A stretch of 64,000 nt of DNA from a virus (Duplodnaviria > Caudoviricetes): the IMG/VR virus record IMGVR_UViG_3300035422_000089, positions 9,670 to 73,669 of that record. One strand, 5' to 3'. Below the pieces are notes generated by a model. It ran no database searches and was not told the DNA's origin. It saw only the letters and a program-made list of their open reading frames with translations. Below are positions 9,963 to 48,647 of this stretch, one piece after another. The position numbers and the translations under genes are program-made. Each line of letters begins with the position of its first letter. Positions within the stretch are counted from its first letter, which is position 1.

Positions 9963-10008
9963 AAAGGAGCAAAGAGGTTTCTGCGCAGGATAAATCATGA
10001 TTTACTCC
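9963..10008 (+). promoter_or_regulatory. Double-palindrome leader E1 (SD-sequestering) upstream of MTase
   Basis: GGAG..GAGGTTT-CTGCGCAG-ga-TAAATCATGATTTA-CTCC, ATG 13 nt later. Confidence 0.7.
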
Positions 10009-10021
10009 AAGTAGATAATTA

Positions 10022-10825
10022 ATGGCAAAAATTGAAAATGATAAATATTATACGCCTATTGGACTGGCAAATTATTGTTGGGATAAGGTGCTTGATATAA
10101 TAGGAGAGCAAAATATATCTGAAATTATTGAGCCAAGTTGCGGAGATGGAGCATTTTATCATCACCCAATAAAAATCCCGCATTTTGGATATGATATAGA
10201 ACCACAATGTAACTTTAAAAATATAATAAAAGATGATTATTTGAAACAAGATATTACATATCTCTGTGGACGATTGGTTATCGGCAATCCTCCATATGGA
10301 AGATGTATGAATATGGCACAAAAGTTTTATAAGAAGTCTATTGAAATTGCAGATTATATAGCATTTATTCTTCCAATATCTCAATTAAATAATACTCGTT
10401 CAATGTATAAATTTGATTTGATTTATAGTGAAGATTTAGGCGTTCATCATTATACAGATAGGGATTTGCATTGTTGTTTTAATATTTATAAAAGACCCGA
10501 AAATGGTGAGCCAAACAAAAAAACAGTATCAAAATTGAAAGATATTTCAATTTATAGACAAGATAGCAAAGGGTATGACAATAAGGATTTTGATATCAGA
10601 ATGTGTTATTGGGGAGATGGAACAGCTGGTAAAATTTTAAAAGATGAAGAACATTATTCTGCTGAATATAAAATTAAAGTAAATAATGTAGAGAAAAGAG
10701 AAGAAATTATTAATGTGCTGTCAACATTTGATTGGAAATCATATTTGAATTGTATAGCTATGAGGAAAATTCAACAATTTCATATTATTGATGTATTGAA
10801 ACAAACTATATGTGGCATTAGTTAG
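10022..10825 (+). CDS. Orphan amino (N6A/N4C) DNA methyltransferase
   Basis: YYTP, EPSCGDG (motif I), IGNPPY (motif IV). Confidence 0.85.
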   Translation: MAKIENDKYYTPIGLANYCWDKVLDIIGEQNISEIIEPSCGDGAFYHHPIKIPHFGYDIEPQCNFKNIIKDDYLKQDITYLCGRLVIGNPPYGRCMNMAQKFYKKSIEIADYIAFILPISQLNNTRSMYKFDLIYSEDLGVHHYTDRDLHCCFNIYKRPENGEPNKKTVSKLKDISIYRQDSKGYDNKDFDIRMCYWGDGTAGKILKDEEHYSAEYKIKVNNVEKREEIINVLSTFDWKSYLNCIAMRKIQQFHIIDVLKQTICGIS

Positions 10826-10862
10826 ATATTAAATTAAATAATATACAAGATACAAAATAAAG

Positions 10863-10921
10863 AAAGGATACGAATGTTCACTAGTGAAGAAAGCTGCGCA
10901 GCTACTAAGTAATGGTGAACA
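10863..10921 (+). promoter_or_regulatory. Double-palindrome leader E2 (57/59 identical to E6)
   Basis: AAAGGA-tacga-ATG; TTCACTAGTGAA and AGCTGCGCAGCT enclosed by TGTTCAC/GTGAACA. Confidence 0.75.
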
Positions 10922-11692
10922 AAAATTAAAGTATTAGAATTATTCGCAGGAACTTGTTGCTTATCAAACGGATTCAAAGCAAGAGGACATGAAACATATA
11001 CGATTGATATTGATAAACAATTTGATGTTGATTGGCATATGGATTGTAGCAAGATTACTACAAAGGATATTATTGAAAGATTTGGTGTACCAGATGTTAT
11101 TTGGTTAGGAACTCCATGTCAAAGTTATAGTATAGCAGCCATCTCACACCATAGAAGAAAAAATGAAGAATCTGGGAATTTAGATGGTGTAAGCAATTTT
11201 GCGAGATTCTGTGATGAAATGAATTGGCACTGCAGAAAAATAGTTGAGGAATTATTAGAGATTAACCCCAATTTAATTTATTTTTGGGAAAATCCAAGAT
11301 CTGCTTTTAGAAAAATGGATTTTATTCAGGGGATACCAAGATATACGATTTGGTATTGTAAATATATGACAGAGTTTCCACCAGAACAAAGAAGAGCCAA
11401 GCCAACAGATTTATTTACAAATCATCCGAACCCTAAGTTTTTACCTGAGTGTAAAAATGGTTCTCCTGACCACGCAGTTGCTAAACGCGGTATGGCAACA
11501 GGAACTCAAGGGATGAAAAATGCAAAAGAAAGAAGTACATATCCAAAACAATTGGTTGAACATATAGTTGATATTTGCGAGCAGTATTTACACGAAAAAG
11601 AATTATTTGATGAATGTAAATCTTGTAAAAACAAATGGTCTTCTATGAAGTGTGATATGTGTGAAGACTTTGATATGTATAAAAGGCAATAA
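10919..11692 (+). CDS. Small C5-cytosine methyltransferase-like protein; true 5' end upstream of track ATG, no in-frame ATG/GTG/TTG before motif I (ATT 10925 candidate)
   Basis: In-frame KIKVLELFAG (motif I) upstream of 11039, GTPCQS (IV), WENP (VI). Confidence 0.75.
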   Translation, partial: TKIKVLELFAGTCCLSNGFKARGHETYTIDIDKQFDVDWHMDCSKITTKDIIERFGVPDVIWLGTPCQSYSIAAISHHRRKNEESGNLDGVSNFARFCDEMNWHCRKIVEELLEINPNLIYFWENPRSAFRKMDFIQGIPRYTIWYCKYMTEFPPEQRRAKPTDLFTNHPNPKFLPECKNGSPDHAVAKRGMATGTQGMKNAKERSTYPKQLVEHIVDICEQYLHEKELFDECKSCKNKWSSMKCDMCEDFDMYKRQ

Positions 11693-11715
11693 TTATATAG
11701 AGAATTATTAAAACG

Positions 11716-11763
11716 AAAGGAGTAAGAGGTTTGCTGGCCAGCATTAAAGATTGTCTTTACTCC
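11716..11763 (+). promoter_or_regulatory. Double-palindrome leader E3
   Basis: GGAGTAA..GAGGTT-TGCTGGCCAGCA-t-TAAAGA-ttg-TCTTTA-CTCC, TTG start 9 nt later. Confidence 0.7.
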
Positions 11764-11772
11764 AAAATGTAA

Positions 11773-47264: not shown

Positions 47265-47309
47265 AAGAAACAATGAAAGATAGGTTTTATTTAAGTAGGG
47301 AGGTAAATT

Positions 47310-47519
47310 GTGGATGTAATTAAGTTTTTAGTTACTAGACCAGATGATACAGTATTAGTTTATTTAATGAAAAACAAATCTGATAATACATATTCGTATG
47401 TAAATATAACAAAATGGCACATATGTCCATGTAAATTTCAATCTATTCAAGAAGCTATTAAGGATATGGATAAATTACTAGAAGAAGGAAAAATTGTGAG
47501 ATATGAATTTACAAATTAG
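47310..47519 (+). CDS. Hypothetical protein
   Basis: 69-aa ORF, GGAGG SD. Confidence 0.7.
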   Translation: MDVIKFLVTRPDDTVLVYLMKNKSDNTYSYVNITKWHICPCKFQSIQEAIKDMDKLLEEGKIVRYEFTN

Positions 47520-47553
47520 ATTATTCATTTGGTTACTTGGAGGTAATTAAAAT

Positions 47554-47946
47554 TTGGAAGTTTTAGCAAAGACAGAATATCAAGATTTATATAGAGTGAC
47601 AGATGGTGTACTTTTAGTAGTGAATAAATTTGTTCCTATCGAATATGAAAACGAAAAATATTTTACTGTACATAGAAGAGGAGTTAAACAAGGCAAATAT
47701 AGTAAAGGATGCCAAGATTGGCTCAAAGTCTTAAAGGAAGATTACTATGATGAATACAAAAATATAATGGTTCCCAAAGGCACAGTTACATATATAGATA
47801 GACCTATAATTCCAACGAATAATCAATCAGATTGGAAATATGAGGTTAAGACAACAGGTAGTGCTTTAAGTGGAGATTTTGACACGATTGAGATGCTGCT
47901 TAGTTCTATTTTATACACGATCAGGACAGGAGAGATAGGAAAATGA
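47554..47946 (+). CDS. Hypothetical protein
   Basis: 130-aa ORF. Confidence 0.7.
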   Translation: MEVLAKTEYQDLYRVTDGVLLVVNKFVPIEYENEKYFTVHRRGVKQGKYSKGCQDWLKVLKEDYYDEYKNIMVPKGTVTYIDRPIIPTNNQSDWKYEVKTTGSALSGDFDTIEMLLSSILYTIRTGEIGK

Positions 47947-48296
47947 AATTACTTGAGATATGGGAAAGAATAGGTAAGCAGCCATTGCAGATTACACGTA
48001 GAAAAGATGCCATAGTATTTATTGGAGATTCTGAATATAGAATTAAAAATATCAGATATGATTGTGGTCAATTTATTGGTTTTGAGGCAGAACTAAAAGA
48101 ACAAGTAGAATGGATAAATAAGGAAATCAAACCTAAAGAAGATACATGGATAATTGTCAAAGATAAGGATGGTAAAGAATATAGAAACCATCAGTGGACA
48201 GGTCATGCTTGGTATGATTTCGTAATAGGGAAAGATAGTTGTGATGGATGGAGGAGTGACGTAGATATAGTAAGTTGGAAATATCAGGAGGATTAA
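47943..48296 (+). CDS. Hypothetical protein with DUF551-like C-terminus
   Basis: WINKEIKP...DIVSWKY. Confidence 0.65.
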   Translation: MKLLEIWERIGKQPLQITRRKDAIVFIGDSEYRIKNIRYDCGQFIGFEAELKEQVEWINKEIKPKEDTWIIVKDKDGKEYRNHQWTGHAWYDFVIGKDSCDGWRSDVDIVSWKYQED

Positions 48297-48300
48297 TCGA

Positions 48301-48567
48301 ATGGCAGGAACATTAAAAGAGATTACAGAAAATTATGAGAAATTACATAGATTACAGATGATAGAAACGATTTTAGATAAAACGCATAGTTATGTTCATG
48401 ATGTAGTTAGCAGAGTGGAAGACGAATTCGATGATTGTGTAGATTTTGAGGATTATATTACAGAGAGCGTGATAAAGAGCACTAAAGAAAATCTTGCTAC
48501 ATTAGGAAAATATTTAGGTTGTAGATCGTATGCTGATTTAATAAGTGATGTAATGCATAAACAGTAA
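48301..48567 (+). CDS. Hypothetical protein
   Basis: 88-aa ORF. Confidence 0.7.
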   Translation: MAGTLKEITENYEKLHRLQMIETILDKTHSYVHDVVSRVEDEFDDCVDFEDYITESVIKSTKENLATLGKYLGCRSYADLISDVMHKQ

Positions 48568-48600
48568 GGCAATAAAACGCTCGTTTTAAGACCTATAAGA

Positions 48601-48647
48601 AGGAGGAAATGAGGTTTGGTATACCAGATAAATGCGCATTTACTCCT
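48601..48647 (+). promoter_or_regulatory. Double-palindrome leader E8
   Basis: AGGAGGAAATGAGGTT-TGGTATACCA-ga-TAAATGCGCATTTA-CTCCT, TTG 9 nt later. Confidence 0.75.

What the first reader, a model, noticed from the sequence alone, without database searches (positions are those of the whole stretch)
9963..48647. Family of 8 structured leaders that hold the SD 45-60 nt from the start codon of MTase and RNA-repair genes
Seen: E1 9963, E3 11716, E7 22665 and E8 48601 share GGAG-n4-5-GAGGTTT-[palindrome 1]-TAAA[palindrome 2]TTTA-CTCC, then 8-13 AU-rich nt and the start codon; GGAG pairs with CTCC. E2/E6, E4 and E5 have the same logic with other outer stems. Seven of the eight MTase genes have one (the exception, 20574, is coupled to 19784); I saw none before other genes except Pnkp-ligase. 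Inference: a three-way-junction cis-regulator that sequesters the SD or loops out to juxtapose it to the start (as in T4 genes 25/38), limiting potentially toxic MTase expression, possibly responsive to SAM or to the protein. From memory a motif called D12-methyl was reported upstream of phage MTases; a match is unverified.
Basis: partly seen in the sequence, partly recalled or inferred. Interest (0 to 1): 0.8.

Follow-up and report, generated by a model that had tools for sequence, protein, structure and literature searches.

The report
Structured leader before phage DNA-modification genes
Four methyltransferase genes of this gut phage start with the same folded stretch of messenger RNA. It is a widespread leader family that matched nothing in Rfam; it pairs the ribosome-binding site with a mimic of the ribosome's own tail, precedes DNA-modification genes in many Lachnospiraceae phages, and carries two fast-changing perfect palindromes whose symmetry simple hairpin folding does not explain.

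Summary
The motif is real. GGAG-N3-5-GAGGTTT-[palindrome]-[AAA-N6-TTT]-ACTCC-N9-13-start occurs four times in the window (0.1 expected), each time before a methyltransferase gene.

The "family of 8" is really four families:
- F1: the 4 canonical copies.
- F2: E2 and E6.
- F3: the Pnkp leader, found in more than 110 large gut-phage contigs before RNA ligases.
- F4: the leader at 19741.

A covariance model of F1 found 145 copies on 131 loci of viral and Lachnospiraceae/Clostridia genome DNA, 1-4 per genome in the five records checked. They precede C5, N4/N6, Dam and MT-A70 methyltransferases, SNF2-methyltransferase fusions, Mom and PAPS-reductase-like genes, plus a few regulators. No Rfam family matches, so D12-methyl and SAM boxes are not supported.

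In F1 the only Shine-Dalgarno sequence lies 49-52 nt from the start. It pairs with CUCC, which sits 9 nt before the start, exactly where ordinary genes of this phage carry GGAG.

P2 and P3 covary strongly, but the complementarity runs through their centres, which a hairpin cannot use. The computed three-way junction is about 5.5 kcal/mol less stable than an extended P1.

Best reading: a cis-acting translational gate or split ribosome-binding site for anti-restriction genes. The mechanism is untested. Earlier notes of this scan report other, unrelated methyltransferase leaders on other DNA.

The parts
9958..10008 (+). F1 leader E1. GGAG 9966-9969, GAGGTTT 9974-9980, P2 CTGCGCAG 9981-9988, P3 TAAATCATGATTTA 9991-10004, CTCC 10005-10008. 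The start is ATG 10022, of a gamma-type N6 methyltransferase-like gene.
   Evidence: model R1 51.4 bits, E 3e-10; Pfam Eco57I-type hit is only weak
11711..11763 (+). F1 leader E3. GGAG 11719-11722, GAGGTTT 11726-11732, P2 TGCTGGCCAGCA 11732-11743 (holds one of only two GGCC sites in the window), P3 AAAGATTGTCTTT 11746-11758, CTCC 11760-11763. The start is TTG 11773, of a C5 methyltransferase.
   Evidence: (51.4 bits)
22658..22709 (+). F1 leader E7. GGAG 22666-22669, GAGGTTT 22675-22681, P2 TTCTGCGCAGAA 22680-22691, P3 TAAATCCGGATTTA 22692-22705, CTCC 22706-22709. The start is ATG 22719, of an N6_N4 methyltransferase. The upstream ORF ends at 22659.
   Evidence: (37.6 bits)
48595..48646 (+). 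F1 leader E8. GGAG 48602-48605, GAGGTTT 48611-48617, P2 TGGTATACCA 48617-48626, P3 TAAATGCGCATTTA 48629-48642, CTCC 48643-48646. The start is TTG 48657, of a D12/Dam-class methyltransferase.
   Evidence: (27.0 bits, E 2e-4)
10863..10927 (+). F2 leader E2. AAAGGA is followed by a 12-codon upstream ORF (ATG 10875). H1 is TTCACTAGTGAA 10877-10888 and H2 is AGCTGCGCAGCT 10892-10903. The SD-like GGTGAAC 10914-10920 is complementary to GTTCAC of H1. The C5 methyltransferase frame has no ATG, GTG or TTG before motif I, so the likely start is ATT 10925.
   Evidence: (z -1.9)
22060..22122 (+). F2 leader E6, a near-identical 59-nt copy of E2. H1 22075-22084, H2 22089-22100, GGTGAAC 22111-22117. The likely start is TTG 22120, of an EcoRI/Eco57I-like N6 methyltransferase.
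   Evidence: (z -1.8)
16895..16965 (+). F3 leader before the Pnkp-ligase gene. AAAGAAAGGA, then GTTCCT 16916-21, which can pair either with its neighbour (CCTATAGG 16919-26) or with AGGAA 16959-63 at the start. GTGCGCAC 16933-40, and a hairpin at 16942-57. ATG 16963 or GTG 16933 is the start.
   Evidence: (z -0.8)
19726..19786 (+). F4 leader before the N6_N4 methyltransferase at 19784. GAAAGG/AAAGGT 19729-43 pairs with ACCTTTC 19766-72, enclosing GCTGCAGC 19744-51 and ATGATCAT 19758-65.
   Evidence: (z -0.75)

Best explanation
The four canonical elements belong to one family (F1) of cis-acting mRNA leaders. These leaders gate translation initiation of phage and prophage DNA-modification genes in Lachnospiraceae and other Clostridia.

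The gene's only Shine-Dalgarno sequence (AGAAAGGAG) lies about 50 nt upstream of the start. In the folded leader it is base-paired to ACUCC, a mimic of the 16S rRNA tail. ACUCC sits 9 nt before the start codon, which is exactly the place where ordinary genes of this phage have GGAG. An extension (UAAG with UUUA) can lengthen this helix to 8 bp at the expense of hairpin P3.

Inferred steps:
- The single-stranded AGAAA just 5' of the helix lets the ribosome's tail invade and take the Shine-Dalgarno sequence.
- The second purine box (GAGG) can then hold the released CUC, so the roughly 40-nt insert stays looped out and the bound Shine-Dalgarno sequence stays near the start. This is a split ribosome-binding site, as in T4 genes 25 and 38.
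- The net effect would be weak or conditional translation of enzymes that are harmful in excess. In many copies it may be coupled to the upstream cistron, whose stop codon lies a median 7 nt before GGAG.

Shown here: sequence conservation, complementarity, covariation of P2 and P3, spacing, lack of any local Shine-Dalgarno sequence, and gene association. Not shown: any effect on translation.
For: - **Copies.** 4 copies in the window against 0.1 expected. Model R1 finds 145 copies on 131 loci, 105 distinct sequences, with 1-4 per genome or phage in the five records checked.
- **Pairing.** P1 is paired in 99.6% of cells. P2 and P3 have compensatory changes: covariation 0.286 against 0.097 in shuffles (0 of 500 reach it) and at most 0.077 when the partners are slid. 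The extended P1 is 97.5% paired and includes a U-A to C-G exchange in variants the search pattern did not force.
- **Spacing.** CTCC to the start is 9 nt in 79 of 140 copies, 8 nt in 25 and 10 nt in 12. The modal GGAG-to-start spacing of ordinary genes in the window is also 9 nt.
- **No local SD.** The spacer has no Shine-Dalgarno sequence: mean -1.1 kcal/mol against the 16S tail, compared with -8.4 for 65 window ORFs. The upstream AGAAAGGAG gives -12.6.
- **Sense-strand pairing.** G.U is tolerated and A.C is rare in the dyads (about 9 to 2), and P2 closes with U.G or U-A in 57 of 59 sequences. This fits pairing in the transcript.
- **Gene association.** About 60 methyltransferases of six kinds, 46 PAPS-reductase-like genes and 1 Mom.
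- **Position in operons.** The upstream stop codon lies a median 7 nt before GGAG.
- **Precedents.** The T4 gene 25/38 split ribosome-binding site (PMC3014915) and Mu com-mom control of a DNA-modification gene by a start-masking structure (PMC6483171).
Against: - No experiment of any kind supports it.
- Single-sequence folding energies are ordinary (z -0.3 to -2.4).
- P1 itself never covaries. It is invariant, as a Shine-Dalgarno sequence must be, so its pairing rests on complementarity alone.
- With either closing helix the effective Shine-Dalgarno-to-start spacing is about 13 nt or more. That is longer than the 5-11 nt of the T4 cases and longer than this phage's own optimum.
- The three-way junction with P3 is computed to be 5.5 kcal/mol less stable than the extended P1.
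- P2 and P3 are complementary through their centres. The model does not need or explain this.
- Many family members come from one human-gut sample and are close relatives, so sequence counts overstate the number of independent events.
Confidence: 0.6

Rival explanations
1. Dimerisation switch. The self-complementary cores of P2 and P3 pair between two copies of the same leader, either loop-loop or as 12-bp duplexes. Forming the P3 duplex pulls UUU out of the extended P1 and so changes Shine-Dalgarno access. Translation would then depend on the concentration of that mRNA.
For: - Complementarity continues into positions that cannot pair within a hairpin. The two central 'pairs' of P3 covary as strongly as the stem pair. 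Of 27 distinct P3, 18 are perfect palindromes and 5 have a single G.T. Essentially all genuine distinct P2 cores are palindromic.
- The central dinucleotide changes on both sides at once (TCCGGA/TCATGA; GAGCTC/GACGTC/GAATTC/GATATC).
- G/C sits in the centre and A/U in the arms, which is poor design for a hairpin.
- The P3 hairpin state is not the monomer ground state.
- RNAcofold gives a homodimer gain of -17.4 kcal/mol against -7.4 for shuffles.
- Leaders within one genome mostly carry different cores.
Against: - This is computed only.
- Any palindrome gives a cofold gain.
- mRNA copy numbers are low and duplex exchange is slow.
- Some P3 have an odd, unpaired centre.
- C-to-T bias on the coding strand could explain the G.T excess.
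- I know of no precedent in bacterial mRNA leaders.
Confidence: 0.12
2. DNA-level element. The two adjacent dyads are read in double-stranded DNA, for example as targets of the phage's or host's methyltransferases or restriction enzymes, as operators of a dimeric regulator, or as recombination sites at cassette borders. The RNA fold would then be secondary.
For: - The cores are exact 4-8-bp palindromes of the kind type II enzymes read.
- All 6 TGCGCA sites of the window, and one of only two GGCC sites (29 expected), lie in leaders.
- The cores change faster than the flanks.
- L211 has tandem leader remnants next to a gene border.
- The same property holds in F3 (CCTATAGG, CCTTAAGG, CCCATGGG).
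Against: - The same palindromes precede unrelated genes, and orthologous genes carry different palindromes. This excludes simple self-recognition by the encoded enzyme.
- No single protein could read so many different cores.
- Position and polarity are fixed relative to the Shine-Dalgarno sequence and the start.
- G.U is tolerated much more than A.C, and P2 has wobble closing pairs.
Confidence: 0.12
3. Processing or stability element. The leader is a cleavage site for a host or phage ribonuclease, or a protective 5' structure, that separates the modification gene's mRNA from the polycistronic transcript, as RNase III sites do in T7 early mRNA (my own knowledge).
For: The leaders are intercistronic, with the upstream stop a median 7 nt away. 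No promoter or terminator consensus lies near them. The helices are conserved.
Against: The helices are short (4-8 bp), far below usual RNase III substrates. This does not explain the exact 9-nt spacing, the anti-SD mimic or the missing local Shine-Dalgarno sequence.
Confidence: 0.07
4. Riboswitch. The junction binds SAM or another small molecule, which sets Shine-Dalgarno access.
For: The purine-rich junction (UAAGAGG) is conserved and most downstream enzymes use SAM.
Against: - No Rfam riboswitch model matches even at E<=10.
- The element has only about 45 nt and marginal stability.
- It also precedes genes with no evident SAM link: PAPS-reductase-like, Mom, sigma factor, Xis and zinc-ribbon genes.
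- The stems are hypervariable, and little else is conserved that could form a pocket.
Confidence: 0.03

Closest known systems
Split ribosome-binding sites of phage T4 genes 25 and 38 (Nivinskas et al. 1999; Malys and Nivinskas 2009; reviewed in PMC3014915)
   Same: The Shine-Dalgarno sequence lies far upstream of the start (22 and 27 nt in T4, 49-52 nt here). A conserved intervening RNA structure is thought to bring the two together. Both are phage genes at intercistronic junctions.
   Different: - Here the insert is a two-hairpin junction of about 40 nt.
- The Shine-Dalgarno sequence is itself paired to a 16S-tail mimic placed at the canonical SD position.
- The effective spacing after folding is about 13 nt or more, not 5-11.
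- The hairpins are hypervariable perfect palindromes.
- The hosts are Clostridia.
Phage Mu com-mom translational control (translation inhibition structure; PMC6483171, PMC3299994)
   Same: A DNA-modification gene used against restriction is kept untranslated by an mRNA structure that hides its start signals. One family member here even precedes a Mom-family gene.
   Different: No Com-like activator gene is linked: the window has no homologue of the zinc-ribbon protein found next to some leaders. There is no sequence similarity and the architecture differs.
D12-methyl RNA motif (Weinberg et al. 2017, PMC5737381; my recollection is that it is in Rfam)
   Same: It is reported upstream of D12-class methyltransferase genes in metagenomic or phage DNA. 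E8 precedes such a gene.
   Different: No Rfam 15 family matches any leader, at gathering score or at E<=10. I could not read the motif's consensus because the paper's supplements are not held.
Other structured leaders of phage methyltransferase genes noted earlier in this scan (e1-1936343, e1-447173, e1-535389)
   Same: Conserved, covarying leaders not in Rfam that precede methyltransferase genes of temperate phages. In one case the same leader heads different methyltransferases.
   Different: Those are 105-135-nt elements of other, mostly enterobacterial, phages. No look-alike of the present sequence was indexed. I did not compare them directly.

Membership tests
Rfam D12-methyl / SAM riboswitches (SMK box and others) | Match to the family covariance model | tested here: not met
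   - cmscan of the whole window at gathering score finds only a tRNA.
- E<=10 scans of 9900-12000 and 48500-48720 give nothing relevant at the leaders.
- 12 leader-bearing loci give 0 hits.

Caveat: I did not verify the accession of D12-methyl in the library.
T4 gene 25/38-type split ribosome-binding site | The only Shine-Dalgarno sequence lies far (more than 20 nt) upstream of the start, with none nearby | tested here: met
   GGAG to the start is 49-52 nt. The spacer after CUCC has a mean of -1.1 kcal/mol against the 16S tail, compared with -8.4 for ordinary ORFs.
T4 gene 25/38-type split ribosome-binding site | A conserved intervening structure | tested here: met
   Covariation in P2 and P3, and complementarity of P1 and its extension.
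T4 gene 25/38-type split ribosome-binding site | Folding reduces the spacing to a functional 5-11 nt | tested here: inconclusive
   Counting by hand, closure by GAG:CUC or by UAAG:UUUA leaves about 13 nt plus the width of a helix. No 3D model or assay is available.
T4 gene 25/38-type split ribosome-binding site | Destabilising the structure lowers translation | not testable with these tools
   Needs reporter fusions.
Mu com-mom type control | A structure masks the translation start signals of a DNA-modification gene | tested here: met
   The Shine-Dalgarno sequence sits in an 8-bp helix in the computed ground state, mean -11.6 kcal/mol. For the gene classes.
Mu com-mom type control | A small zinc-finger activator gene lies immediately upstream and binds next to the structure | tested here: not met
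   tblastn with the double-zinc-ribbon protein and other leader-linked proteins finds nothing in the window. The upstream ORFs have no such domain.
   Model R1 finds four; the others score E>=1.3 or nothing. E2 and E6 align only with each other. The Pnkp and 19741 leaders have their own relatives.

The most novel reading that the evidence does not exclude
The leader is an mRNA-mRNA dimerisation switch. The hypervariable, self-complementary cores of P2 and P3 are address labels that let identical leaders pair with each other only. This remodels the SD/anti-SD helix, so each anti-restriction gene is translated according to the concentration of its own transcript.
Probability: 0.12. Interest if true: 0.9.

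Novelty: new variant of a known kind. Interest (0 to 1): 0.68.

Why it matters
Phage methyltransferases and other DNA-modifying enzymes decide whether a phage survives host restriction, but they are harmful when over-made. How gut phages of Clostridia control them is unknown.

This element matches no Rfam family, is easy to recognise and is specifically tied to such genes. It therefore marks anti-restriction modules in metagenomes. Sister families mark RNA-repair genes in the same way.

Its design is unusual. The only Shine-Dalgarno sequence lies 50 nt away and is paired to a ribosome-tail mimic that sits at the normal SD position. That makes it a good test case for how ribosomes of Gram-positive bacteria use structured or split initiation sites.

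The strict palindromy of fast-evolving hairpin centres is a separate puzzle. It could reflect RNA dimerisation, DNA-level recognition or templated mutation, and a few simple experiments could settle it.

Tried and rejected
- **Rfam identity.** D12-methyl, SAM boxes, ribozymes and every other family give no match.
- **Leader peptide in F1.** A UUG or AUG follows GGAG in many copies, but its frame, length and stop position are not conserved (read by hand).
- **Programmed bypass or frameshift into the gene.** The upstream ORFs are not contiguous with the genes.
- **Self-recognition.** The idea that the palindromes are the target sites of the downstream enzyme fails: identical palindromes precede unrelated genes, and orthologues carry different ones.
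- **A shared trans-factor gene.** tblastn with the zinc-ribbon, PAPS-reductase, sigma, Xis and Myb proteins found in other loci gives no hit in the window.
- **Promoter or terminator role.** No consensus sites lie near the leaders.
- **The 16-bp TRAAA-N6-TTTYA motif as the same thing as P3.** It shares only AAA-N6-TTT. Its N6 is not palindromic and its R/Y positions do not covary.
- **Literature.** Searches for a described motif of this kind found nothing. The supplements of PMC5737381 are not held.
- **Search of earlier findings by sequence.** No look-alike.

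
Full report
**1. What is in the window**

The window is bases 9670-73669 of a 73.7-kb IMG/VR virus record that CheckV rates 38% complete. It is AT-rich (31% G+C) and nearly all its genes are on the + strand.

At 9966, 11719, 22666 and 48602 the text reads (A)AAGGAG-N3-5-GAGGTTT-[dyad 1]-[T/A AAA-N6-TTT A]-CTCC. A 9-13-nt A-rich spacer and a start codon follow. Two partial patterns each give 4 matches against 0.10-0.14 expected; no shuffle of 100 reaches 4.

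The four downstream genes are:
- a gamma-type N6 methyltransferase-like gene (10022; Pfam hit only weak, motif I visible),
- a C5 methyltransferase (11773),
- an N6_N4 methyltransferase (22719),
- a D12/Dam methyltransferase (48657).

**2. Eight leaders, four families**

I built a covariance model (R1) from 15 gap-free relatives with the three-way-junction structure. With filters off it finds exactly these four copies in the window (E 3e-10 to 2e-4). Nothing else scores better than E=1.3.

- **F2 (E2 and E6).** E2 (10863) and E6 (22060) are a different, 59-nt near-identical element. It consists of AAAGGA plus a short upstream ORF, two perfect palindromes (TTCACTAGTGAA, AGCTGCGCAGCT), and a Shine-Dalgarno-like GGUGAAC at normal distance from the start. 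GGUGAAC is complementary to the 5' arm of the first palindrome. Two other viral contigs carry it.
- **F3 (Pnkp leader).** The leader at 16895-16962 belongs to a third family, found in more than 110 large (85-217 kb) gut-phage contigs. There it precedes several kinds of RNA ligase.
- **F4.** The leader at 19726-19772 has two relatives.

All four families share a theme: a purine tract pairs with a pyrimidine tract around GC-rich palindromes. But only F1 holds the Shine-Dalgarno sequence about 50 nt from the start.

**3. F1 is a large family**

Pattern scans of viral and genome collections, followed by R1 searches of the fetched loci, gave 145 copies on 131 loci, 105 distinct sequences. The named genome records are Lachnospiraceae and other Clostridia: Anaerotignum, Roseburia, Robinsoniella, Herbinix.

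In the five whole genomes or phage records checked there are 1-4 copies each; a complete 68-kb phage has one. So F1 is not a general initiation region.

Downstream genes clustered and scanned with Pfam:

| Gene class | Copies |
|---|---|
| PAPS-reductase-like | 46 |
| Double-zinc-ribbon | 23 |
| N6_N4 methyltransferase | 21 |
| C5 methyltransferase | about 20 |
| Small N6-adenine-methylase-like | 6 |
| SNF2-methyltransferase fusion | 5 |
| Dam | 4 |
| MT-A70 | 2 |
| Sigma-70-type | 2 |
| Mom | 1 |
| Tn916-Xis-type | 1 |
| Myb-like | 1 |

The link is therefore to DNA-modification genes and a few regulators, not to methyltransferases alone.

No Rfam 15 family matches a leader at gathering score or at E<=10.

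**4. Anatomy and statistics**

- *P1.* GGAG:CUCC is paired in 99.6% of cells but never varies.
- *Extended P1.* An extension, GGAGUAAG with UUUACUCC, is paired in 97.5% of cells. Variants that the search pattern did not force change both sides together: GGAGC...GCUCU and GGAGAAA...UUUCUCC.
- *P2 and P3.* Both covary strongly: score 0.286 against 0.097 in shuffles (0 of 500 reach it) and at most 0.077 when the partners are slid.
- *Spacing.* CUCC to the start is 9 nt in 79 of 140 copies, 8 nt in 25 and 10 nt in 12. That equals the modal GGAG-to-start spacing of ordinary genes in this window.
- *Spacer.* It is 57% A and has no Shine-Dalgarno sequence: -1.1 kcal/mol against the 16S tail, compared with -8.4 for 65 ordinary ORFs. 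The upstream AGAAAGGAG gives -12.6.
- *Upstream gene.* Where one was found, its stop codon lies a median 7 nt before GGAG.

So a mimic of the ribosome's tail occupies the normal Shine-Dalgarno position, and it holds the real Shine-Dalgarno sequence, which is encoded 40-45 nt further upstream.

**5. What does not fit a plain three-way junction**

- Single-sequence folding energies are unremarkable (z -0.3 to -2.4).
- When the structures are enforced, the extended-P1 state averages -11.6 kcal/mol and the junction with P3 averages -6.1. The junction is never the lower of the two in 81 sequences.
- Yet P3 shows the best covariation, and its complementarity continues into the two central positions, which cannot pair in a hairpin. 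Those two 'pairs' show GC, AU, CG and UA just like a stem pair.
- Of 27 distinct P3, 18 are perfect palindromes, 5 have a single G.T and 3 have an odd, unpaired centre. Essentially all genuine distinct P2 cores are perfect palindromes.
- Near-identical leaders differ by double changes of the central dinucleotide: TCCGGA/TCATGA, and GAGCTC/GACGTC/GAATTC/GATATC.
- The same holds in F3: CCTATAGG, CCTTAAGG, TCTCATGAGA, CCCATGGG.
- Mismatches are mostly G.T, about 9 against 2 A.C. This fits pairing in the sense transcript, but it also fits C-to-T bias on the coding strand.

I can think of three explanations and cannot choose between them. The first is pairing between two RNA molecules: the cofold gain is -17.4 against -7.4 kcal/mol for shuffles. 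The second is recognition in double-stranded DNA: all 6 TGCGCA sites and one of the two GGCC sites of the window are in leaders, and 7 of 11 GC-rich palindromes are in leaders. The third is templated mutation that keeps palindromes perfect.

**6. Mechanism**

The best-supported reading is a cis-acting control of translation initiation. The Shine-Dalgarno sequence is masked by an anti-SD mimic. It has a free AGAAA toehold for the ribosome's tail and a second purine box (GAGG, or GAGA, GAG, GGAAG or UAGG in variants). That box can take over the released CUC, so the insert stays looped out.

This resembles the split ribosome-binding sites of T4 genes 25 and 38 (PMC3014915). In purpose it resembles Mu com-mom (PMC6483171). 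The effective spacing of about 13 nt suggests deliberately weak initiation, or initiation that depends on translation of the upstream cistron.

None of this has been tested. SAM sensing is unlikely, given the non-SAM genes and the lack of any riboswitch match.

**7. Verdict**

The element is a new family within a known kind of regulator, with two unusual features:
- the anti-SD mimic sits at the Shine-Dalgarno position;
- the fast-changing dyads are palindromic through their centres.

Earlier notes of this scan describe other, unrelated leaders before phage methyltransferase genes. Other first-stage notes on this same genome anticipated the self-complementary loops and the second family, and I checked both here.

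Noticed in passing
window 3434-61160 (24 sites, e.g. 7085, 9800, 19222, 48573): The 16-bp motif T[AG]AAA-N6-TTT[CT]A occurs 24 times against 3.5 expected. Most sites (18 of 24, by my reading) sit just 5' of the Shine-Dalgarno sequence of a + strand gene. N6 is not palindromic, and R/Y do not covary (A..C is the commonest combination). It therefore looks like a protein site in DNA rather than a hairpin.
   Followed up: partly
window 10904-11692; also L330 and L332: The C5 methyltransferase after E2 has motif I (ELFAG) upstream of any ATG, GTG or TTG in its frame. The likely start is AUU 10925, 4 nt after GGUGAAC. The same arrangement is conserved in two other viral contigs.
   Followed up: partly
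whole window: GGCC is almost absent (2 found, 29 expected). CTAG, CGCG and GATC stand at 0.4-0.55 of expectation. This suggests restriction pressure from the host. TGCGCA occurs 6 times, always inside a leader.
   Followed up: partly
L333-L453 (viral contigs of 85-217 kb): Leader family F3 (AGAAAGGAAAAAT..GTTCCTATAGGATAAAGTGCGCAC..CTTACTAAGGTAAGAGGAAC) precedes at least four different RNA-ligase genes, and once a methyltransferase, in more than 110 large gut-phage contigs. It is a second RNA-repair-linked leader that gave no Rfam gathering hit in the two F3 loci scanned.
   Followed up: partly
L467 1438-1500 (Ruminococcus phage phiRM10, MT980841.1, gp48): The cultured R. gnavus phage has a homologue of the E7 methyltransferase. 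By homology its real start is 38 nt upstream of the annotated one. It is preceded by a different GC-rich leader whose AGAAAGGAG also lies about 50 nt from the ATG. This phage could serve as an experimental system.
   Followed up: partly
L211 667-803: Two leader copies lie in tandem 40 nt apart. The first has no gene behind it, as if left over from a cassette rearrangement.
   Followed up: no
window 13098-13565: After the C5 methyltransferase gene come two short ORF pieces with similar ends (...GGYS.LY...). They look like duplicated C-terminal or target-recognition modules. Another first-stage note proposes frameshifting here.
   Followed up: no
window 16221-16889 and 99-172: An HNH endonuclease gene lies directly upstream of the Pnkp-ligase leader, and a tRNA gene (66.6 bits) lies at the window's start.
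   Followed up: no
window 16933-16965: The start of the Pnkp-ligase gene is ambiguous. ATG 16963 has GAGGA abutting it (spacing 0-1 nt). GTG 16933 lies inside the palindrome GTGCGCAC, with AGGTGA 3 nt upstream.
   Followed up: no
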